From a virus, in UHGV virus genome UHGV-0097968: a stretch of 47,717 nucleotides of DNA; one strand, 5' to 3'. Below, piece by piece: positions 6,257 through 21,853 of this stretch. How positions within the stretch are numbered: the first letter of the stretch is position 1; every line of letters begins with the position of its first letter. The position numbers and the translations under genes were made by a program. The notes under the pieces were generated by a model that did no database searches, had not been told where the DNA came from, and worked only from the letters and a program-made list of their open reading frames with translations.

Positions 6257-6306
6257 GTAAAAATAAAGGCAATGCATTGAAAACATTGCCTTTATTTTAT
6301 TTTTTG
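6257..6306. terminator. Bidirectional rho-independent terminator after the repressor gene
   Basis: 10-bp stem AAAGGCAATG/CATTGCCTTT with 9-nt loop, flanked by A-run on one side and T-run (TTTATTTTATTTTTT) on the other. Confidence 0.6.
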
Positions 6307-6710
6307 GTGGGGGTTAGTTTCTTTCTGGTAACCAGTAACTCTTCAAATAAACGATTAAAGTTTTCAACTTTATCTTCTAATTCAATTAGTTGCTTTTCTT
6401 TTTCTGACTCGGGTAATGAATCAAATAACTCTAACAATCTTTTTTGACGTGAATCCAGCTCTGTTGGTAATTCGTCTACCGGAGTTGGCGCCTGGTCTTC
6501 GTCACCAAAAAGCAGCCATGTGGCAGAACACTTAAGTGCATTGGCCAAAGCCAGCAAGTTCTGACCTTTTGGTTCATTTTGTCCGCTTTCCCATTTAAAA
6601 ACGCTCACACTCGATCTTCCAACCATATCAGCAAGCTGTTGTTGGGTTAGACCAAGCTGTTTGCGTCTTTGAGATAAACGGTCGCTAAGCATCAAATTCT
6701 TCATCCTCAT
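6297..6710 (-). CDS. cI-like repressor, XRE-family HTH only (no peptidase S24 domain)
   Basis: 137-aa ORF with N-terminal HTH (LTQQQLADMVGRSSVSVFKWESGQNEP), divergent from a Cro-like gene; C-terminal part short, acidic and coiled-coil-like. Confidence 0.85.
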   Translation of the reverse strand: MRMKNLMLSDRLSQRRKQLGLTQQQLADMVGRSSVSVFKWESGQNEPKGQNLLALANALKCSATWLLFGDEDQAPTPVDELPTELDSRQKRLLELFDSLPESEKEKQLIELEDKVENFNRLFEELLVTRKKLTPTKK

Positions 6711-11447: not shown

Positions 11448-11514
11448 GTGTGTTGCCGCTGGCATTCGTATCAAAGAAGAGTGAGATGGTAGCTTAGAAC
11501 ATCGGTAATTTTCA

Positions 11515-11568
11515 TTGACGTGATTATAACCTAAGGTTATCATCAAAATACTGTACATTTATACAGTG
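11515..11568 (+). promoter_or_regulatory. Promoter with palindromic operator and LexA (SOS) box upstream of the colicin-like gene
   Basis: TTGACG 11515-11520; 15-bp perfect palindrome ATAACCTAAGGTTAT 11526-11540 in the spacer; -10 TATCAT 11538-11543; LexA box TACTGTACATTTATACAGTG 11549-11568 (CTGT-N8-ACAG). Confidence 0.7.
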
Positions 11569-11623
11569 CTTAGAGGGTGATTCTCTAATATCTCTGGGAA
11601 ATAATTAATAGAAGGAAGTAGAT

Positions 11624-12775
11624 ATGGCATGGACTGGATTTGGTGGTCAATGGAATAACGGTGTGCATTCTGGCGGTGATGATTCTGGCAGTATAGGCGG
11701 TGGGGGCATAAAACTTGACGGCAAAGGGAATCCTGTAGGTACTCGTGCGCCGACTGCTGAGGAGATCGCATCACAATGGAATAGCTTTGGAGGTAGTCAG
11801 ATTAAACCCAGTGATGTATCGAACATCAGACCGGATGGTGAAGGTACTTATCAGGCTAACATTGCAGGTAATTACCACGTTGTAAGTTCGCAGGGCGCGA
11901 ATACCCCATTTGCTTCGGAACGTAGCAACGTTGCGGCAGGTTTTAGTGGTGGTGTGGGACCAACGCCTGATGGAAGGGGTAACAATAGTGCACCCAGCAA
12001 TCCAAAGGCTGAGGCCGAGGCAAAGAAATGGATTGAAACAGTCAAGGCTGTTCGGGCTGGTAATATCCCCTACGGTTATGTTCTTAACGACGGCAAGGTA
12101 GGCGTAAACGTGCCTCAATATGTTGAACGCCGCAAAGGTCGTGGCGACACATATACCGTTCGGGGTAAAGATTTGTTTGTTGTTTCGCCTGAACTGACAA
12201 AAGCGTATCAGGATGGTCTTGCGGAACGTGCTGAGATTCTGGACGCCGTCAAATTTACGTCTGATTTCTATAAAGACCTTGCAGGTAAATTTGGACAGCA
12301 TAACGCGAACATCGCAAAGGAACTGGCGGAGGCTGCAAAAGGCAAGAAGATTCGTAACAGCAAAGATGCACTGGCGGCGGTGGATAAATTTAATAACCGA
12401 CTGAGTAAAAAGTATGGAGCCAAAGACCTTGAGGCAGTTGCCAGGGCTTTGGAATCGGTTAACCGGGATGCAATGGCGAAGAATTTGTCTAAATTTGGTA
12501 AGGCATTTGGTGTCGCAAGTTATGCTGTCGATGCTTACAATGTTCTTTACATTGAATTTCCGAAAGCTATTCGTACCAAAAACTATCGCCCAATGCTTGT
12601 TAAGTTGGAGGCAATTCTTCTTGGTGCTGATGCTGGTATTGTTGCTGCGTGGGCATTTAGTGCGCTTCTGGCAACGCCGATGGGTATTCTGACGTTTGCG
12701 CTTATAATGGCATTGCTAAGTGCGATGATTAATGAAAAACGCATTGAGGAACTGAATAAGTTCTTAGGGATTTAA
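11624..12775 (+). CDS. Colicin E1-family pore-forming bacteriocin (short, 383 aa; Gly-rich N-terminal domain, C-terminal channel-forming domain)
   Basis: Gly-rich N-terminus MAWTGFGGQWNNGVHSGGDDSGSIGGGG; C-terminal domain with GKKIRN, KFGKAFGVAS, RTKNYRPMLVKLEAILLGADAGIVAAWAFSALLATPMGILTFALIMALLSAMINEKRIEELNKFLGI (hydrophobic hairpin and terminal NKFxGI) matching my recollection of colicin E1/Ia-type pore domains; SOS box in promoter; GAAGGAAG RBS. Confidence 0.85.
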   Translation: MAWTGFGGQWNNGVHSGGDDSGSIGGGGIKLDGKGNPVGTRAPTAEEIASQWNSFGGSQIKPSDVSNIRPDGEGTYQANIAGNYHVVSSQGANTPFASERSNVAAGFSGGVGPTPDGRGNNSAPSNPKAEAEAKKWIETVKAVRAGNIPYGYVLNDGKVGVNVPQYVERRKGRGDTYTVRGKDLFVVSPELTKAYQDGLAERAEILDAVKFTSDFYKDLAGKFGQHNANIAKELAEAAKGKKIRNSKDALAAVDKFNNRLSKKYGAKDLEAVARALESVNRDAMAKNLSKFGKAFGVASYAVDAYNVLYIEFPKAIRTKNYRPMLVKLEAILLGADAGIVAAWAFSALLATPMGILTFALIMALLSAMINEKRIEELNKFLGI

Positions 12776-12795
12776 CCGTTATCAGTAGTAACAAG

Positions 12796-12818
12796 GGCCA
12801 CGTCATGTGGCCTTTTTT
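12796..12818 (+). terminator. Rho-independent terminator after the colicin-like gene
   Basis: Stem GGCCAC/GTGGCC, loop GTCAT, then T6; the immunity gene stop codon lies inside the loop on the other strand. Confidence 0.6.
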
Positions 12819-13147
12819 GACAATTGAATATAAATAATAGACAGGAGGCCAATGGGAATGGAAAAAATAAAAAGAATACCGTGGTATAAACCCATTACCC
12901 CGCTTTTTAAACAGGTGTCTGTCCACGCTCCTGTTACCCATGATTCGGATGTTGTATATTTGAGGACGATGTTTTCTACAGCTTTTTTTGCATATGGGAA
13001 CAAGAAACAACTAATAACAGAAAGCATAACCAAATAATCCCATATCCACAAATCGCCTTCAGCTATGGCCTGATGCCACCTGAAAACCGTCATGCCGAGA
13101 AATACGCATCCGTACAGGATGTTGCTCAAATAATATCGAAATGTCAT
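12803..13147 (-). CDS. Colicin E1-type immunity protein (3-TM inner-membrane protein), convergent with toxin gene
   Basis: 114 aa; MTFRYYLSNILYG..., FPYAKKAVENI..., SIPIGLLSIIYI resemble ImmE1 (MSLRYYIKNILFG..., CPYSKYAIEYI..., AIPFGLLGLF) by recollection; three hydrophobic segments; opposite-strand arrangement typical of pore-former immunity genes. Confidence 0.8.
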   Translation of the reverse strand: MTFRYYLSNILYGCVFLGMTVFRWHQAIAEGDLWIWDYLVMLSVISCFLFPYAKKAVENIVLKYTTSESWVTGAWTDTCLKSGVMGLYHGILFIFSIPIGLLSIIYIQLSKKAT

Positions 13148-13444
13148 CTATGTTCCTTAAGTGTAGAACTCGTCTGACTGTTTTAACCATCCAGAACTCT
13201 ATGAATAACATAACATACCAGTCGTTACGAGAGTACAAGAAAACAATTGGTGATGTTTCTGTATCCGAAATATATCAAATAATAGATATTAAGAATAGTT
13301 GCCTAATATCTATTTGAAGTGTTTATGGATAATATCTATGACGACGAATTGTTCGCAGGGTTTATTGCAAGAGGGGAGCTACATGGTGTTGAGTACCCAC
13401 TGAATGTAGAGAATGTGAACACAGGCTGTTTGAAGTTGATTGAA

Positions 13445-13715: not shown

Positions 13716-14510
13716 ATGACAACTCAAGTATCCGCAGCAGCCATCTCCCCGATTATCCACAACCAACTTCCCGTCCTCACCACCGAATTACTCGCGAACC
13801 TCTATGGCACAGAGCCGGATTACATTCGTAAAAACCATAACCGGAACTCAGAGCGATTCGTGGTCGGGAAGCATTACTTTTTGCTCGAAGGTGAGGAGTT
13901 GCGCGAATTTAAGCACAGCATGTCTTTAAGACCTCCTGTGAAAATCGCCAGAAATGTCCGCTCTCTCATCCTCTGGACAGAACGCGGCGCAGCTCGCCAT
14001 GCCAAAATGCTGGAAACAGAACAGGCCTGGGAAGTTTTCGAAAAGCTGGAAGATTGTTATTTTAGCCAGCGTCCAGAGAGGCGGAGTACAACTACCGATG
14101 ACCGTACTCCCTTACGTGATGCCGTTAATATGCTGGTCGGTAAGAAAGGCATGATGTATCCCGATGCCTACACCATGATTCATCAACGCTTCGCCGTCTC
14201 TCACATAGAACAACTGTCACAGACGCAAATGTTAGAGGCGATTGAATACATCCACTGCCTGCTACTCGATGAAAATCAGCCAACCATTCCGGATTTTTCT
14301 TTTATCACCACTATCAAAAATGGAAAAGTGACAAGGATGCGCCATGTTGCCAAAGGCGAACATCTGATGACCTTTGACGCTTTCAAAGAGATCGCTGAGC
14401 GGGCAGGGTATCTGGTGATCCACAGCGACAACCTGCGAAGTATGACGCTGGATAAATTGATGCTAATGGGGGAAAAGTCGGCTGTATCCGTTGCTGATTC
14501 AGCATTTTGA
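13716..14510 (+). CDS. Putative antirepressor (ORF6N-like N-terminal domain)
   Basis: 264 aa; N-terminal region ISPIIHNQLPVLTTELLANLYGTEPDYIRKNHNRNSERFVVGKHYFLLEGEELREF resembles ORF6N/Ant-type domain by recollection; RBS AAAAGGAAA. Confidence 0.6.
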   Translation: MTTQVSAAAISPIIHNQLPVLTTELLANLYGTEPDYIRKNHNRNSERFVVGKHYFLLEGEELREFKHSMSLRPPVKIARNVRSLILWTERGAARHAKMLETEQAWEVFEKLEDCYFSQRPERRSTTTDDRTPLRDAVNMLVGKKGMMYPDAYTMIHQRFAVSHIEQLSQTQMLEAIEYIHCLLLDENQPTIPDFSFITTIKNGKVTRMRHVAKGEHLMTFDAFKEIAERAGYLVIHSDNLRSMTLDKLMLMGEKSAVSVADSAF

Positions 14511-18139: not shown

Positions 18140-18745
18140 TTACTTGCGTTTAAAAAGGTATTTTGTCACGACCAGCACGAGGCCGAATACCTCTGTCAAA
18201 GTACCGCCCATGTACAACTGGAGCGTTAAGTCTTTAAATACAAGCCATTCAGCACCAGTGGCAAAAAATACACCATTCATTATCAAAAGCTGGCAAGCAA
18301 GGATAATAAGGAACCATTTGCCATAGCGTTTTTTTAGATCGATTTCAGCTTCAAAATCTTTGTTGTTGAGTTGTTTGCGCTCATGCTCAGTATCAAGTGA
18401 ATTCACCTGTTTCACAGATGTGAACTCGGTCAAGATTTTACTCTCAGTACGGGTGACTTGTTGAGAGGGGGTAGGAATTGGAATTCTTTTGATTGACGCA
18501 GCTACAGCCATTTTGCGAGCTTCGGCAGCTCTTTTTCTGGCTATTCCGTGAATACGGGCAGACGGTTTTTTTGGAGCGTGCGAAACCTTTGTCTGAGGTG
18601 AAGTTTCGTCAGGAGACTGAACCGGAGTTTCATCCTCCTCCGGCTCAACCTCTTCTGCTAACTGACGGTGTAGGTTGAGGGAATCCTTCAGTCGGCGTGC
18701 AACTTCCTGTTTGAAACGGCTGTTAAAATCGTCATCCGATGGCAT
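18140..18745 (-). CDS. Membrane protein (disordered charged N-terminal region, two C-terminal TM helices), co-operonic with ImmA-like peptidase
   Basis: 201 aa; hydrophobic segments WFLIILACQLLIMNGVFFATGA and GTLTEVFGLVLVVTKYL; 9-bp gap to upstream peptidase gene; 3' end duplicated at 14542-14618. Confidence 0.65.
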   Translation of the reverse strand: MPSDDDFNSRFKQEVARRLKDSLNLHRQLAEEVEPEEDETPVQSPDETSPQTKVSHAPKKPSARIHGIARKRAAEARKMAVAASIKRIPIPTPSQQVTRTESKILTEFTSVKQVNSLDTEHERKQLNNKDFEAEIDLKKRYGKWFLIILACQLLIMNGVFFATGAEWLVFKDLTLQLYMGGTLTEVFGLVLVVTKYLFKRK

Positions 18746-18754
18746 TCTAAAGCG

Positions 18755-19243
18755 TTACCCCAACCTCAAGTTCTTTAAACGATAAGTCATCGCATCGTCA
18801 GATACGCCAAAATGATGCGCCATTATATAACTTGGTTGGCCGTCAGCGTGCAGTTTTCTGACCTCATCTACCGGCATCAGAAGTTCTGCTGCGAACTTGT
18901 TCGCAAAAATTTCATCAGGATGCGTTCCGGCGCTTGCGGTTTCGCCACGTAAATCAACGTACTCATATTCATCGCTATGCGATGCTTGCCGGGCGATGTA
19001 ATGCCCCAACTCATGCCCACATGAAAAACGTTGACGAACTTTGTTGTCATCACTGTTTAGAAAGATCGCTGGATCTTGATCTTTTTGTTTAATCAGTGCG
19101 CCAGAAACTTTCCCAGGAAGATCGGTAATAAAAACATCTAATCCCATGTCGTGAGCAATTTTCGCTGGATCAACAGGGAAACCACGCCCGCACCAGAACG
19201 TGTCCAGCACTCGCCGGGCGTGCTCTCTTGGGTTGGTAGCCAT
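18755..19243 (-). CDS. ImmA/IrrE-family zinc metallopeptidase (COG2856-like)
   Basis: 162 aa; HEXXH motif in RQRFSCGHELGHYIA; downstream EIFANKFAAELLMPVDEV and FGVSDDAMTYRLKNL typical of ImmA/IrrE. Confidence 0.8.
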   Translation of the reverse strand: MATNPREHARRVLDTFWCGRGFPVDPAKIAHDMGLDVFITDLPGKVSGALIKQKDQDPAIFLNSDDNKVRQRFSCGHELGHYIARQASHSDEYEYVDLRGETASAGTHPDEIFANKFAAELLMPVDEVRKLHADGQPSYIMAHHFGVSDDAMTYRLKNLRLG

Positions 19244-19810
19244 AGCTCCTCCAGTTACTGCATTACGATTATTGGTTGAAATATAGACAACATGTTCCGT
19301 ACCACATTCCTGTAAAAGTGCAAATTCTGCACTTCTGGTACGATATTAACTGTTAGTAGTAAAGTCTTCCAGATAAATCACTTTAAAATCTTGTGAATTG
19401 CTTGCTTTTTACGCTGCATTGTGGATGACTCAATGTTTCCAGTAAAAACATACAGGATAATCATGAGATTAGTGGTTTTTTAGGCATCCATATGTTTCTG
19501 AAAAAAATGGATGCCACAAGCGCCTGGATGAGCACAGGAAGGGAAGGCTATTACATGTGTGATTTATTACATCTGTAAAAAAATACAGATCTAACTTGAT
19601 CTTTTCATTGAAGTCTTTCTTAGTCCTGGATAGGATCTGGAGGTTGCGAAGTTTTTAGAGTCGCATCAAAGGGAAAGCCCTGACAGTTGGAGCTGTCAGG
19701 GCCATACAAAAACATCGGTTAATGCTTTCGTTGAGATCTCGGTTTGGGAGATTACCTCAACCGGGATCCCGTGTAAAGCATTCATTGCCGAAAATGATAT
19801 AGGTCAATGA

Positions 19811-20089
19811 ATGAAACACATCTGTAAAAAGTCACATCGTCACGACAGTATGTTTGATGTTCTTTCTGCAAATCAGGGTAACGTTGGGCGGCACAAGTGT
19901 TGTGGATGTGCCTATGATAAAGGTATGTGGCATGCATTAATCGGCGTTCCGCGTGCGGTTGATGACTCTGTTTTAGGTGATTTACCCGAAAGCCAGGCTG
20001 GGCATGTCCGTCATAAAGATGCTTTTGAAGCATATAATATGGGCTATGACCATGGGATGCATAAAAAAGCCTATGGTATGGCCTCATAA
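19811..20089 (+). CDS. Hypothetical Cys/His-rich small protein
   Basis: 92-aa ORF followed by strong terminator; the overlapping minus-strand ORF has implausible His/Tyr-rich composition. Confidence 0.45.
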   Translation: MKHICKKSHRHDSMFDVLSANQGNVGRHKCCGCAYDKGMWHALIGVPRAVDDSVLGDLPESQAGHVRHKDAFEAYNMGYDHGMHKKAYGMAS

Positions 20090-20848: not shown

Positions 20849-20941
20849 TGACCATAAACGGTTTAATCCCCTATAAAACCGTTTAATAAAATTCACGACG
20901 TGAATATAATTGTTCATTATTCCCTCATTGTATCTGGCGTT

Positions 20942-20979
20942 ATGACAAATGCCATAAAATACTGTATAAATGTACAGGC
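20942..20979 (+). promoter_or_regulatory. Second LexA (SOS) box overlapping a promoter
   Basis: TACTGTATAAATGTACAGGC at 20960-20979 (CTGT-N8-ACAG); -35 ATGACA 20942-20947 and -10 TATAAA 20965-20970 inside the box. Confidence 0.65.
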
Positions 20980-20999
20980 AATGGCGTTAGGGGGAAGAC

Positions 21000-21179
21000 A
21001 TGAATATTCAAGAATCTATAGGCGAACTACCGGAAACATGCCGGGCTGTTATCAAGCGTAAGGACGGACACATCGTTGGTGTGCGTGTTCTGACTGATGA
21101 TGAACGGATTGCCAGCCTGACGGCGTTTCTCGAGTTGGCAGAAACAGCCGGATATACTATTACACCCCCTGACGCGTAA
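21000..21179 (+). CDS. SOS-controlled small protein (59 aa), candidate antirepressor or SOS effector
   Basis: ORF below the track's 60-aa cutoff, found by reading; strong RBS GGGGGAAG; LexA box 20 bp upstream; terminator-like hairpin downstream (21195-21225). Confidence 0.5.
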   Translation: MNIQESIGELPETCRAVIKRKDGHIVGVRVLTDDERIASLTAFLELAETAGYTITPPDA

Positions 21180-21256
21180 AACACGGTATAATATCGGTGC
21201 TGGATTGAACACCCGGCACCATTTTCTGAACACTGCCGCGCCACCTGGAGTTAAAC

Positions 21257-21853
21257 ATGGCGCAGCATTCATTTATCAGGGTATCCGGCGGTTCGCTAAT
21301 ACCCGCGACACCAGACACGCAACGCTGGTTGACTGAACGAGTCAAACCAGGTGCTGTTGTGTATGCAGATTTCAAACAAGCGCGTAATCCCGCGTTTCAT
21401 CGTAAATTTTTCTCACTTCTCAACCTGGGCTTTGATTACTGGCATCCGTCCGGAGGGGCTATTTCTCCTGCGGAGCGCGAACTGGTTCACGGCTACGTTA
21501 AGTTACTGGCGTATTACGGTGGACACGGTGATGTCATGGCAGAGCTGGCTGATCAGTATCTTCTCGATGAGTCGGAAAAGCGCGCGGGGAATATCAGTGC
21601 GGTGAAGTCGTTCGAGGCGTTTCGCGCCTGGGCGATTATGGAAGCTGGGTTTTATGACGTTCATCAGATGCCGGATGGCAGTTTGATGCGCGTACCTCGT
21701 TCAATCTCGTTTGCTGCGATGGACGATCTTGAGTTCGGTCAACTGTATTCAGCCGTTTTAGATGTGCTGTGGAATTATATTTTGTTCCGCACGTTTGCCT
21801 CTCAGGAGGCCGCTGAAAATGCTGCCGCGCAGCTGCTGGATTACACATCATGA
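21257..21853 (+). CDS. DUF1367-like nin-region protein
   Basis: 198 aa; position and sequence recalled as DUF1367-type prophage protein; GGAG RBS. Confidence 0.55.
   Translation: MAQHSFIRVSGGSLIPATPDTQRWLTERVKPGAVVYADFKQARNPAFHRKFFSLLNLGFDYWHPSGGAISPAERELVHGYVKLLAYYGGHGDVMAELADQYLLDESEKRAGNISAVKSFEAFRAWAIMEAGFYDVHQMPDGSLMRVPRSISFAAMDDLEFGQLYSAVLDVLWNYILFRTFASQEAAENAAAQLLDYTS

What the first reader, a model, noticed from the sequence alone, without database searches (positions are those of the whole stretch)
20942..21179. Second consensus LexA box driving a 59-codon ORF missing from the ORF track
TACTGTATAAATGTACAGGC (20960-20979) is a textbook SOS box overlapping the -10 element of a promoter. 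It sits 20 bp upstream of a well-initiated 59-aa ORF (RBS GGGGGAAG, MNIQESIGELPETCRAVIKRKDGHIVGVRVLTDDERIASLTAFLELAETAGYTITPPDA) with its own downstream hairpin. Because the repressor at 6297-6710 is HTH-only with no autoproteolytic domain, SOS induction cannot work by RecA-stimulated self-cleavage. A LexA-repressed small antirepressor, as in phage 186 Tum or the Gifsy prophages, would fit; this ORF is the best candidate for that trigger.
Basis: partly seen in the sequence, partly recalled or inferred. Interest (0 to 1): 0.6.

Follow-up and report, generated by a model that had tools for sequence, protein, structure and literature searches.

The report
LexA-controlled small prophage antirepressor gene
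A 59-codon prophage gene behind a LexA (SOS) operator belongs to the known family of small antirepressors (Salmonella GfoA and FsoA, E. coli Rem), so it is very probably the DNA-damage trigger that inactivates this prophage's non-cleavable DicA-type repressor: a correct but unsurprising find.

Summary
A perfect CTGT-N8-ACAG LexA box lies at 20960-20979. It overlaps the -10 of an ATGACA-17-TATAAA promoter and ends 20 nt before a 59-codon ORF (21000-21179).

The ORF is a real gene. dN/dS between alleles is 0.14-0.17, and PGAP annotates it as a hypothetical protein.

The protein is homologous to experimentally proven small antirepressors:
- a GfoA orthologue: BLASTP E 1e-10, profile probability 97%
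- FsoA: E 4e-9
- Rem: profile E 7e-7

All of these except Rem (not scanned against PHROGs) fall in phrog_340, which is labelled "unknown function".

The ORF occupies the same slot as gfoA and gftA, directly upstream of the irsA/DUF1367 gene (56% identical to Gifsy-2 STM1020). The prophage repressor (6297-6710) is a full-length DicA-family protein, 52% identical to K-12 DicA, which is Rem's target. It has no S24 protease domain.

LexA boxes recur upstream of family members that are only 42-58% identical, in promoter DNA that otherwise cannot be aligned (P about 6e-11).

Phage 186 Tum is only a functional analogue, with no detectable homology.

Differences from the Gifsy module: there is no dinI, the protein is a minimal 59-aa domain with an ATG start, and a second copy of the domain is fused to an ORF6N Ant protein.

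Verdict: a new member of a known kind, of modest interest. LexA binding and repressor binding remain untested.

The parts
20942..20947 (+). -35 hexamer ATGACA of the proposed LexA-controlled promoter
   Evidence: Read from the sequence. It matches TTGACA at 5/6 and lies 17 bp from the -10. TTATGACA is invariant in all 7 aligned alleles and present in the 58%-identity relative L018. The consensus scan does not list this promoter because it requires T at position 6 of the -10.
20960..20979 (.). LexA (SOS) box TACTGTATAAATGTACAGGC; core CTGT-N8-ACAG at 20962-20977
   Evidence: The arms are invariant across alleles while the spacer and flanks vary; allele L009 reads TACTGTATATATATACAGTG, 19/20 to consensus. 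Equivalent boxes lie upstream of relatives with 42-58% identity and upstream of Gifsy-2 and SEN34 dinI. LexA binding itself was not tested.
20965..20970 (+). -10 hexamer TATAAA, inside the LexA box
   Evidence: Read from the sequence. Other alleles have TATAAA, TATATA or TACATA. The annotated p95 promoter of phage 186 tum has the same box-over-the-10 layout.
20990..20997 (+). Shine-Dalgarno-like GGGGGAAG
   Evidence: Read from the sequence. GGGGGAA is conserved in the alleles and in L018.
21000..21179 (+). 59-aa ORF: small antirepressor of the GfoA/FsoA/Rem family (phrog_340)
   Evidence: ORF confirmed. dN/dS 0.14-0.17. phrog_340 E 4e-20. Versus FsoA, E 4e-9. Versus a GfoA orthologue, E 1e-10. 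Profile versus GfoA 97.4% and versus Rem 91.9%. AF2 model has pLDDT 88.9: helix, beta-hairpin, helix. PGAP annotates it as hypothetical protein WP_001025459.1.
21197..21221 (+). Conserved hairpin GGTGCTGG-ATTGAACAC-CCGGCACC between the small ORF and DUF1367; function unknown
   Evidence: Fold. The loop core TGAACA is invariant and the stems covary across lineages, with 4 of 5 pairs showing double changes. The T-run after it is not conserved, so it is not a canonical terminator. No Rfam family matches.
21257..21853 (+). DUF1367 / NinB-like gene, orthologue of Gifsy irsA (STM1020); next gene in the putative LexA operon
   Evidence: Pfam DUF1367 E 2e-78. 56% identical to Gifsy-2 STM1020, E 9e-83. 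The same synteny holds in L018, L020, L022, SEN34 and mEp237.
6297..6710 (-). Prophage repressor, DicA family, non-cleavable; the inferred target of the antirepressor
   Evidence: Pfam finds HTH_3 only and no S24 domain. NCBIfam 'transcriptional repressor DicA' E 2.5e-59, 199 bits against a cutoff of 101. 52% identical to K-12 DicA, E 2e-48. 31% identical to Gifsy-2 GtgR, E 2e-11. It shares the C-terminal block LLxLFxxLPExE.
14298..14432 (+). Second copy of the same domain: residues 195-239 of the ORF6N 'Ant' protein (gene 13716-14510)
   Evidence: phrog_340 hit on aa 199-240, E 3e-12. BLASTP E 3e-6. hhalign 96.7%, E 3.8e-10. There is no CTGT-N8-ACAG upstream of this gene. The gene is absent from the related prophage L017.

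Best explanation
The 59-codon ORF encodes a small antirepressor of the GfoA/FsoA/Rem family, expressed from a promoter that host LexA occludes.

Proposed sequence of events:
1. In a lysogen, LexA sits on the box that covers the -10 and transcription start, and keeps the gene off.
2. DNA damage activates RecA, LexA cleaves itself, and the ORF is transcribed.
3. The protein binds the prophage's short DicA-type repressor (6297-6710), which cannot self-cleave, and removes it from its operators.
4. The early operons are derepressed and lytic development starts.

Shown here: the box, promoter and ORF; purifying selection on the ORF; conservation of the box; homology to three tested antirepressors; synteny with irsA; and the DicA-family nature of the repressor.

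Inferred: LexA occupancy, physical binding to this particular repressor, and a requirement for this ORF in induction.
For: (1) Anatomy. The box overlaps the -10 and ends 20 nt before a start codon with a good RBS. The characterised LexA-controlled p95 promoter of phage 186 tum has the same layout.

(2) It is a real gene. dN/dS is 0.14-0.17, with synonymous sites near saturation in codons 1-36. The region is present in 444 of 5426 complete E. coli genomes.

(3) Homology to proven antirepressors. FsoA gives E 4e-9. The GfoA orthologue gives E 1e-10, and the profile gives 97.4%. The Rem profile gives 91.9%. ORF59, GfoA and FsoA all fall in phrog_340. The identities of FsoA, GftA and GfoA were verified from the published primers. 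Function is documented in PMC3121763 and PMC10448788.

(4) Synteny. Gifsy-2, SEN34 and mEp237 have LexA box, dinI, antirepressor, irsA/DUF1367. Here the order is LexA box, ORF59, DUF1367, with DUF1367 56% identical to STM1020.

(5) Target. The repressor is DicA-family (E 2.5e-59), 52% identical to DicA (the target of Rem) and 31% identical to GtgR (the target of GftA and FsoA). It has no S24 domain.

(6) The LexA box is conserved through sequence turnover among alleles and upstream of relatives with 42-58% identity.

(7) The module is constant in related prophages that lack the ORF6N Ant and ImmA modules.
Against: - No experiment supports this. LexA binding, SOS inducibility and repressor binding are all inferred.
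- The box matches only 16/20 of the 20-mer consensus.
- A second promoter-like site (TTAATA-16-TATAAT, 20883-20910) lies upstream of the box and would not be occluded by LexA.
- Pairwise BLASTP finds nothing against GftA or Rem. The profile link to GftA is marginal (P 0.002-0.009).
- FsoA is a precedent for a family member that is not needed to induce its own prophage.
- The same ORF59 allele (99% identical DNA region) occurs with a repressor only 31% identical to the window's repressor. Either the specificity is broad or the resident repressor is not the specific target.
- The prophage also carries another antirepressor candidate and a CapP/ImmA-like protease.
Confidence: 0.78

Rival explanations
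1. ORF59 is a genuine LexA-controlled antirepressor, but it is an accessory or cross-talk factor aimed mainly at repressors of other co-resident prophages, as FsoA is. Induction of this prophage would then depend on something else. Candidates are the ORF6N Ant protein (13716-14510) and the CapP/ImmA-like metalloprotease (18755-19243), which would cleave the repressor after DNA damage.
For: FsoA is dispensable for Fels-1 induction yet inactivates the Gifsy-2 repressor. The same ORF59 allele occurs with heteroimmune repressors that are 31% identical. The Ant protein carries the same domain. The protease matches Peptidase_M78 (E 1e-17) and CapP (E 1.6e-25), and a CTGT-N8-ACAG site (19573) travels with that module.
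Against: Related prophages with the same backbone keep the LexA-ORF59-DUF1367 module but lack both the Ant and ImmA modules, so those two cannot be the general trigger. There is no LexA box upstream of Ant. The protease is not adjacent to the repressor, unlike ImmA/ImmR or CapP/CapH pairs. Without ORF59, a non-cleavable DicA-type repressor would have no SOS input in those relatives.
Confidence: 0.13
2. The main purpose of the LexA-controlled promoter is SOS-dependent expression of the downstream genes: the DUF1367/NinB-like recombination mediator, DUF1364/YbcO and antiterminator Q. On this reading the 59-codon ORF is a minor upstream gene that plays no part in repressor inactivation.
For: ORF59, DUF1367, YbcO and Q are co-oriented and closely spaced. 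The intervening hairpin has no conserved T-run, so read-through is plausible. In the Gifsy prophages the LexA unit also includes dinI and irsA.
Against: The ORF is under strong purifying selection and is homologous to proteins that alone suffice to induce prophages or derepress DicA. Lemire et al. report that irsA deletions had no effect on induction. Read-through and antirepressor function are not mutually exclusive.
Confidence: 0.06
3. The palindrome resembles a LexA box by chance in AT-rich promoter DNA, and the short ORF is spurious.
For: In 3 of 100 shuffles the window reaches 3 CTGT-N8-ACAG sites. The 20-mer matches only 16/20 of the consensus.
Against: The arms are invariant through sequence turnover. 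The box recurs in 7 of 7 DUF1367-linked lineages (P about 6e-11). dN/dS is 0.14-0.17. HMMER finds 39 cluster representatives with E <= 1e-3 in the 1.84-billion-protein library. The AF2 model is confident.
Confidence: 0.01

Closest known systems
[quoted passage not shown] 2011, PMC3121763)
   Same: Homologous: BLASTP E 1e-10 to the SEN34 orthologue, profile 97.4%, both in phrog_340, and a shared C-terminal GY-x-(I/V)-TPP-x-D motif. Both are under a LexA box, lie outside the immunity region between the replication genes and Q, sit directly upstream of irsA/DUF1367, and are paired with a short non-cleavable HTH repressor.
   Different: No dinI gene stands between the LexA promoter and the antirepressor. 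The protein is 59 aa against about 80 aa, lacking the N-terminal extension. It has an ATG start with a strong SD, where the Gifsy genes use TTG or GTG. The host phage has a myovirus-type tail module. The repressor is closer to DicA (52%) than to GtgR (31%).
FsoA of Salmonella prophage Fels-1 (STM0898.2n)
   Same: Homologous: E 4e-9, 41% identity over 39 aa, both in phrog_340. FsoA is experimentally shown to inactivate the GtgR repressor.
   Different: fsoA lies in the early-left operon under the phage's own cleavable repressor, has no LexA box, and is not needed for Fels-1 induction.
Rem of the E. coli K-12 Qin cryptic prophage (Ragunathan and Vanderpool 2023, PMC10448788)
   Same: The same family by profile comparison (91.9%, E 7e-7). 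Rem relieves DicA repression 165-fold. The window's repressor is 52% identical to DicA.
   Different: No pairwise BLASTP similarity. Rem is 83 aa. No CTGT-N8-ACAG was found near rem, and the authors state that its inducing signal is unknown.
GftA of Gifsy-2 (STM1020.1n)
   Same: Identical genomic slot between the LexA promoter and irsA. Same function on a GtgR/DicA-type repressor.
   Different: Sequence similarity is marginal: no BLASTP hit, hhalign P 0.002-0.009, and a separate phrog (4847).
Tum of coliphage 186
   Same: A LexA-repressed antirepressor. The promoter architecture is nearly the same: the box overlaps the -10, and the start codon lies 19 bp after the box against 20 bp here.
   Different: No detectable homology (hhalign P 0.21). 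Tum is 146 aa with a DinI-like C-terminal half, and it acts on an unrelated 186 CI repressor.
Large ORF6N/KilA-type 'Ant' antirepressors (phrog_4792 and relatives)
   Same: The C-terminal 45 residues of the window's own ORF6N Ant are homologous to ORF59 (96.7%, E 3.8e-10).
   Different: ORF59 is that domain alone. It has no ORF6N or DNA-binding-like N-terminal domains, and it has its own LexA promoter.

Membership tests
GfoA/FsoA/Rem small antirepressors (phrog_340) | Significant sequence homology to experimentally validated members | tested here: met
   FsoA E 4e-9. GfoA orthologue E 1e-10 and profile 97.4%. Rem profile 91.9%, E 7e-7. phrog_340 E 4e-20. Reference identities were verified from published primers.
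GfoA/FsoA/Rem small antirepressors (phrog_340) | Small single-domain protein of about 60-85 aa | tested here: met
   59 aa. The AF2 model is one compact helix, beta-hairpin, helix unit with pLDDT 88.9. Most relatives in the 1.84-billion-protein library are 55-99 aa.
GfoA/FsoA/Rem small antirepressors (phrog_340) | Partner repressor is a short HTH protein of the GfoR/GtgR/DicA type without an autocleavage domain | tested here: met
   HTH_3 only. DicA family E 2.5e-59. 52% identical to DicA. 31% identical to GtgR.
GfoA/FsoA/Rem small antirepressors (phrog_340) | Binds the repressor and releases it from DNA; expression alone induces the prophage | not testable with these tools
   Needs pull-down, EMSA, or ectopic expression in a lysogen. 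Only monomer structure prediction was available.
Gifsy-type LexA-controlled induction module | LexA box at the promoter of the transcription unit that carries the antirepressor | tested here: met
   The box at 20960-20979 overlaps the -10. It is conserved among alleles and in distant relatives. This is sequence-level evidence only; LexA binding was not assayed.
Gifsy-type LexA-controlled induction module | Module lies outside the immunity region, downstream of the replication genes, with the antirepressor immediately upstream of irsA (DUF1367) | tested here: met
   The repressor is at 6.3-6.7 kb and the helicase at 8.8-10.2 kb in the window; helicase identity comes from the annotation of the related record L001. 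ORF59 is at 21.0 kb. The DUF1367 gene at 21257 is 56% identical to STM1020.
Gifsy-type LexA-controlled induction module | [quoted passage not shown] | tested here: not met
   No ORF stands between the box and ORF59. In Gifsy-2, SEN34 and mEp237 dinI is present. Lemire et al. report that dinI is dispensable for induction, so this marks a variant and does not exclude membership.
Tum (phage 186) antirepressors | Homology to Tum, including the DinI-like C-terminal half | tested here: not met
   hhalign of the family profile against Tum gives P 0.21 and probability 0.3%. ORF59 has no DinI-like part.
Lambda CI / LexA-type self-cleaving repressor induction (the alternative that an antirepressor replaces) | Repressor carries a Peptidase_S24 domain with an Ala-Gly cleavage site | tested here: not met
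   The 137-aa repressor matches only HTH families. It aligns end to end with the 135-aa DicA.

The most novel reading that the evidence does not exclude
The roughly 45-residue phrog_340 fold may be a portable, broad-specificity docking module for DicA/GtgR-type repressors. It may recognise their conserved C-terminal LLxLFxxLPExE helix and not the variable HTH.

This prophage would then run a two-stage circuit. A LexA-gated minimal copy (ORF59) fires first. A second copy fused to an ORF6N Ant protein, expressed only after derepression, locks in or broadcasts the decision.

Because one ORF59 allele co-occurs with repressors that are only 31% identical, it could act as a master key that co-induces heteroimmune prophages in polylysogens.

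Separately, the conserved TGAACA-loop hairpin between the antirepressor gene and DUF1367 could be an undescribed regulatory RNA or DNA element of this module.
Probability: 0.25. Interest if true: 0.5.

Novelty: new member of a known kind. Interest (0 to 1): 0.3.

Why it matters
It assigns a probable function to a gene that is "hypothetical" in RefSeq and "unknown function" in PHROGs, although the region is present in about 8% of complete E. coli genomes (444 of 5426). That function is the SOS trigger for prophage induction.

It shows that phrog_340 contains the experimentally characterised GfoA and FsoA, with Rem joining the family by profile comparison, so many phage genomes could be re-annotated.

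It extends the Gifsy LexA-antirepressor mechanism to a common class of E. coli prophage with a DicA-type repressor. This supports the 2011 prediction that induction by antirepression is widespread in E. coli. It is relevant to antibiotic-triggered prophage induction and to cross-talk between prophages.

It does not reveal a new mechanism.

Tried and rejected
- **Word-indexed protein searches:** with ORF59 and with GftA these returned only close relatives. The exhaustive HMMER search was needed to see the family.
- **Genome-contig scan:** it gave only one usable locus.
- **Local Pfam and NCBIfam:** neither has a model that hits ORF59. Precomputed annotations mention a newer Pfam family, PF27490 'Rem', on two relatives, which I could not scan locally.
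- **Solved structures:** no sequence relative in the PDB, and no significant fold match in the PDB or BFVD. The predicted fold therefore adds no functional information.
- **Direct link to GftA:** rejected as unproven. There is no BLASTP hit and only a marginal hhalign P.
- **Tum homology:** rejected.
- **Downstream hairpin as an intrinsic terminator:** rejected. The T-run is not conserved, and the fold of the whole intergenic region is no better than shuffles (z -0.44). No Rfam family matches.
- **Upstream hairpin (20855-20885, z -3.1):** not conserved as an inverted repeat in other alleles, so I did not count it as part of the module.
- **Covariation between antirepressor and repressor alleles:** none found. 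The 78%-identical ORF59 allele pairs with the same repressor protein as the GF131 prophage, and the 99%-identical allele pairs with a 31%-identical repressor.
- **Literature:** searches found no study of this specific E. coli protein.
- **Exact-match scan of viral contigs with the gfoA primer:** found nothing.
Full report
**1. The observation**

- TACTGTATAAATGTACAGGC occupies 20960-20979.
- It matches the 20-bp LexA consensus TACTGTATATATATACAGTA at 16 positions, with both CTGT and ACAG arms perfect.
- It overlaps a TATAAA -10 hexamer (20965-20970), which lies 17 bp downstream of ATGACA (20942-20947).
- GGGGGAAG (20990-20997) precedes the ATG at 21000.
- The ORF 21000-21179 encodes the quoted 59 residues.

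The window has three perfect CTGT-N8-ACAG sites, at 11551, 19573 and 20962. The expected number is 0.5, and 3 of 100 shuffles reach three. On its own that is only suggestive. The stronger evidence is comparative and is given in section 3.

The ORF is not unannotated in public records. PGAP calls it hypothetical protein WP_001025459.1, and the phage record ON470624 also lists it.

**2. Context**

The window is an Escherichia prophage.
- Early region: lambdoid, with a repressor, a Cro-like gene, YdaT, RepO, a DnaB-type helicase, and a nin-like region ending in Q.
- Late region: lambda-type head genes and a P2-type baseplate and tail.

The 411-bp region around the finding is present at 95-99% identity in 444 of 5426 complete E. 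coli genomes, always on the chromosome. It is 97% identical in phage vB_EcoM-705R4.

Downstream of the ORF lie DUF1367 (a NinB/Orf-like protein), DUF1364/YbcO and Q.

**3. The ORF is a real gene and the box is under selection**

I aligned alleles whose proteins are 71-78% identical, plus one near-identical allele from E. whittamii. The promoter and the first ~36 codons are heavily diverged. Even so, the reading frame is intact, and dN/dS is 0.14-0.17 with synonymous sites near saturation.

Within that diverged stretch, CTGT and ACAG are invariant while the spacer and flanks change. The boxes read:
- TACTGTATAAATGTACAGGC
- TACTGTATAAACATACAGGT
- TGCTGTATAAATACACAGGA
- TACTGTATATATATACAGTG
- TACTGTACATATATACAGGG

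TTATGACA, which contains the -35, is also invariant.

**4. What the protein is**

Local Pfam and NCBIfam have no model for it. PHROGs places it in phrog_340, "unknown function", at E 4e-20.

An exhaustive HMMER search of 1.84 billion cluster representatives found 39 relatives with E <= 1e-3. Most are 55-99 aa, and they share a core of the form:

LP-x2-GRVV-x4-NG-x3-S-x-R-x-L-x2-DEH(I/V)A(S/T)L-x2-F-x-EL(A)-x2-AGY

A tblastn against phage genomes gave a weak hit in Salmonella phage Fels-1. The hit falls in STM0898.2n, and pairwise BLASTP against that protein gives E 4e-9.

Lemire et al. 2011 (PMC3121763) described small antirepressors that are sufficient to induce the Gifsy prophages: GftA (Gifsy-2), GfoA (Gifsy-1), GfhA (Gifsy-3) and FsoA (Fels-1). 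They bind the short repressors GtgR, GfoR and GfhR. Their primer table let me identify the reference proteins:

| Protein | Primer evidence | Identified as |
|---|---|---|
| FsoA | le154 encodes MNSQQMM; le162 encodes ...EAGIRFEEISNVG | Fels-1 STM0898.2n |
| GftA | le116 and le124 | Gifsy-2 STM1020.1n |
| GfoA | starts MSNSALQK, ends ...RRLGYRVTPPSDI | orthologues below |

The gfoA primer hits SEN34_55 and mEp237 gp49. My own tblastn had already found both ORFs.

How the family relates to each reference protein:

| Comparison | Result |
|---|---|
| SEN34 GfoA orthologue vs ORF59 | BLASTP E 1e-10 |
| SEN34 GfoA orthologue vs family profile | 97.4%, E 1.5e-11 |
| GfoA orthologue and FsoA vs phrog_340 | E 8e-21 and 1e-26 |
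| Rem (Qin) vs family profile | 91.9%, E 7e-7 |
| GftA vs family | no BLASTP hit; hhalign P 0.002-0.009; separate phrog_4847 |
| Tum (phage 186) vs family | no relationship, P 0.21 |

Rem was found by Ragunathan and Vanderpool through PSI-BLAST from GfoA and FsoA. They showed that it derepresses the DicA-controlled dicBp promoter 165-fold.

**5. Synteny**

Gifsy-2, SEN34 and mEp237 carry this order: LexA box, dinI, small antirepressor, STM1020/NinB-like DUF1367 (irsA).

The window has: LexA box, ORF59, DUF1367. Its DUF1367 protein is 56% identical to STM1020 (E 9e-83).

More distant family members also sit immediately upstream of a DUF1367 gene. These are P0008 (58% identical) and P0009 and P0012 (both 42%). 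Each has a good LexA box within about 105 nt upstream, in promoter DNA that otherwise cannot be aligned:
- TACTGTATAAATATACAGTT
- TGCTGTATATAATTACAGTA
- TACTGTGTTTATATACAGTA

On that basis, finding such a site within 150 nt in at least 6 of 7 lineages (all 7 have one) has P about 6e-11.

Family members in other contexts have no box. Examples are fsoA in the Fels-1 left operon, and P0014 in a satellite-like element.

**6. The target**

The repressor at 6297-6710 has only an HTH_3 domain. It matches the NCBIfam DicA model end to end (E 2.5e-59, 199 bits against a cutoff of 101).
- 52% identical to K-12 DicA (E 2e-48)
- 31% identical to GtgR (E 2e-11)

It therefore belongs to the class of repressor that members of this antirepressor family are known to inactivate, and it cannot undergo RecA-stimulated self-cleavage.

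I aligned it with DicA, GtgR and the heteroimmune repressor of the closely related prophage in strain GF131. The longest invariant block is LLxLFxxLPExE in the C-terminal half.

The GF131 repressor is only 31% identical to the window's, yet the two prophages' ORF59 regions are 99% identical in DNA. Conversely, a 78%-identical ORF59 allele pairs with the identical GF131-type repressor. This fits the broad specificity reported for GfoA, which acts on both GfoR and GfhR. It also means that specificity for the resident repressor is inferred and not shown.

**7. Mechanism**

The most likely sequence of events is:
1. LexA occludes the promoter.
2. SOS cleavage of LexA releases transcription.
3. The 59-aa protein binds the DicA-type repressor and removes it from its operators.

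The predicted fold is a short helix, a beta-hairpin and a helix (pLDDT 88.9). By analogy with the A2B2 complex of GfoR and GfoA, the complex may be a heterotetramer.

The phage 186 p95/tum promoter has the same layout of box, -10 and start codon.

Steps 1 and 2 rest on the sequence and its conservation. Step 3 rests on homology.

**8. Rivals**

The prophage also encodes an ORF6N "Ant" protein. Its C-terminal 45 residues are homologous to ORF59 (96.7%, E 3.8e-10), but the gene has no LexA box.

It also encodes a CapP/ImmA-like metalloprotease (Peptidase_M78, E 1e-17; PADLOC capP, E 1.6e-25). That module travels with its own CTGT-N8-ACAG site.

Both modules are absent from related prophages that keep the LexA-ORF59-DUF1367 unit. 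I therefore regard them as accessory.

Read-through from the LexA promoter into DUF1367, YbcO and Q cannot be excluded.

**9. Differences from the described systems**

- No dinI.
- The protein is a minimal 59-aa version of the domain with an ATG start.
- A second, fused copy of the domain exists in the same prophage.
- There is a mosaic junction inside the gene near codon 36.
- A conserved hairpin with an invariant TGAACA loop and covarying stems lies between the antirepressor gene and DUF1367. It is also present in Gifsy-2 and SEN34. It is not a canonical terminator and has no Rfam match.

**10. Verdict**

The gene is a new, unannotated member of a known family operating by a known mechanism. 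That makes it useful for annotation and for understanding SOS induction of a common E. coli prophage type, but not surprising to a specialist.

Noticed in passing
window 11549-11568 and 11624-12775 (+); module about 11456-13300: The best LexA box in the window is TACTGTACATTTATACAGTG (17/20). Its 16-mer core is the exact reverse complement of the core at 20962. It lies 55 bp upstream of a 383-aa ORF with a colicin pore-forming domain (Pfam E 2e-45) and a Gly-rich N-terminus. The closest plasmid colicins are only 34% identical over the full length and 52% over the pore domain. The module has no megablast match in 5426 complete E. coli genomes and is absent from related prophages. It looks like a divergent SOS-regulated colicin carried as a prophage moron. 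The minus-strand ORF at 12803-13147 is an untested immunity candidate.
   Followed up: partly
window 19573-19588; 18140-19243 (-); 19811-20089 (+): A third CTGT-N8-ACAG site (CTGTAAAAAAATACAG, a weak match to the full consensus) lies in the 570-bp gap between two units. One is a CapP/ImmA-like metalloprotease with a 201-aa protein of unknown function (phrog_5346). The other is a divergent 92-aa ORF (phrog_3941). The site co-occurs with the protease module in L001, L005, L007 and L008, and is absent where the module is absent. This may be an SOS-linked accessory or defence module.
   Followed up: partly
window 21187-21245; also L004 about 11706-11745 and L014 about 1843-1868: A conserved element lies between the antirepressor gene and DUF1367. 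It consists of an ATAAT (a perfect TATAAT at 21187-21192), a 5-8 bp hairpin with an invariant TGAACA loop core and covarying stems (GCTGG/CCAGC, GTCAG/CTGAC, ACTGG/CCAGT, AACGG/CCGTT), and then a conserved CTGCYGYGCCA. There is no conserved T-run and no Rfam match. Its function is unknown. Possibilities include a 5' stabilising stem of a DUF1367 transcript, a processing site, or a protein-binding site.
   Followed up: partly
window 20950-21110 (alignment A2, columns about 100-255): A mosaic junction lies inside the 59-codon gene. The promoter and codons 1-36 are highly diverged between alleles, with dS saturated. Codons 37-59 and the downstream DNA are nearly identical. This suggests recombinational exchange of the N-terminal half together with its promoter.
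   Followed up: partly
L010 3966-3979: One natural allele has CTGTATATATACAG. Its spacer is 6 nt where a LexA box needs 8, after loss of one TA unit. That should abolish LexA binding and predicts constitutive antirepressor expression, or a prophage that is already defective.
   Followed up: no
window 6297-6710 (-) compared with L001 3975-4367 (-): Prophages with 99% identical ORF59 regions carry heteroimmune repressors that are only 31% identical. All of them, together with DicA and GtgR, share the C-terminal block LLxLFxxLPExE outside the HTH. That block is a candidate dimerisation or antirepressor-docking surface.
   Followed up: partly
proteins P0029, P0033, P0024; locus L023: The phrog_340 domain also occurs as tandem or N- plus C-terminal duplicates (P0029, 120 aa; P0033, 240 aa) and fused to other sequence (P0024, 139 aa). 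One member, P0014 in locus L023, sits in a satellite-like context (AlpA, Bro-N, DUF927 primase) with no LexA box.
   Followed up: no
databases (phrog_340; RefSeq WP_001025459.1): There is an annotation gap. phrog_340 is labelled 'unknown function' although it contains the experimentally characterised antirepressors GfoA and FsoA. PGAP names the E. coli protein 'hypothetical'. Precomputed annotations show that a newer Pfam family, PF27490 'Rem', weakly covers some members.
   Followed up: yes
window 20883-20910 (+): A second promoter-like site, TTAATA-16-TATAAT (10/12), lies about 50 bp upstream of the LexA box and is largely conserved among alleles. If it is active, LexA would act on it only as a roadblock.
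   Followed up: no
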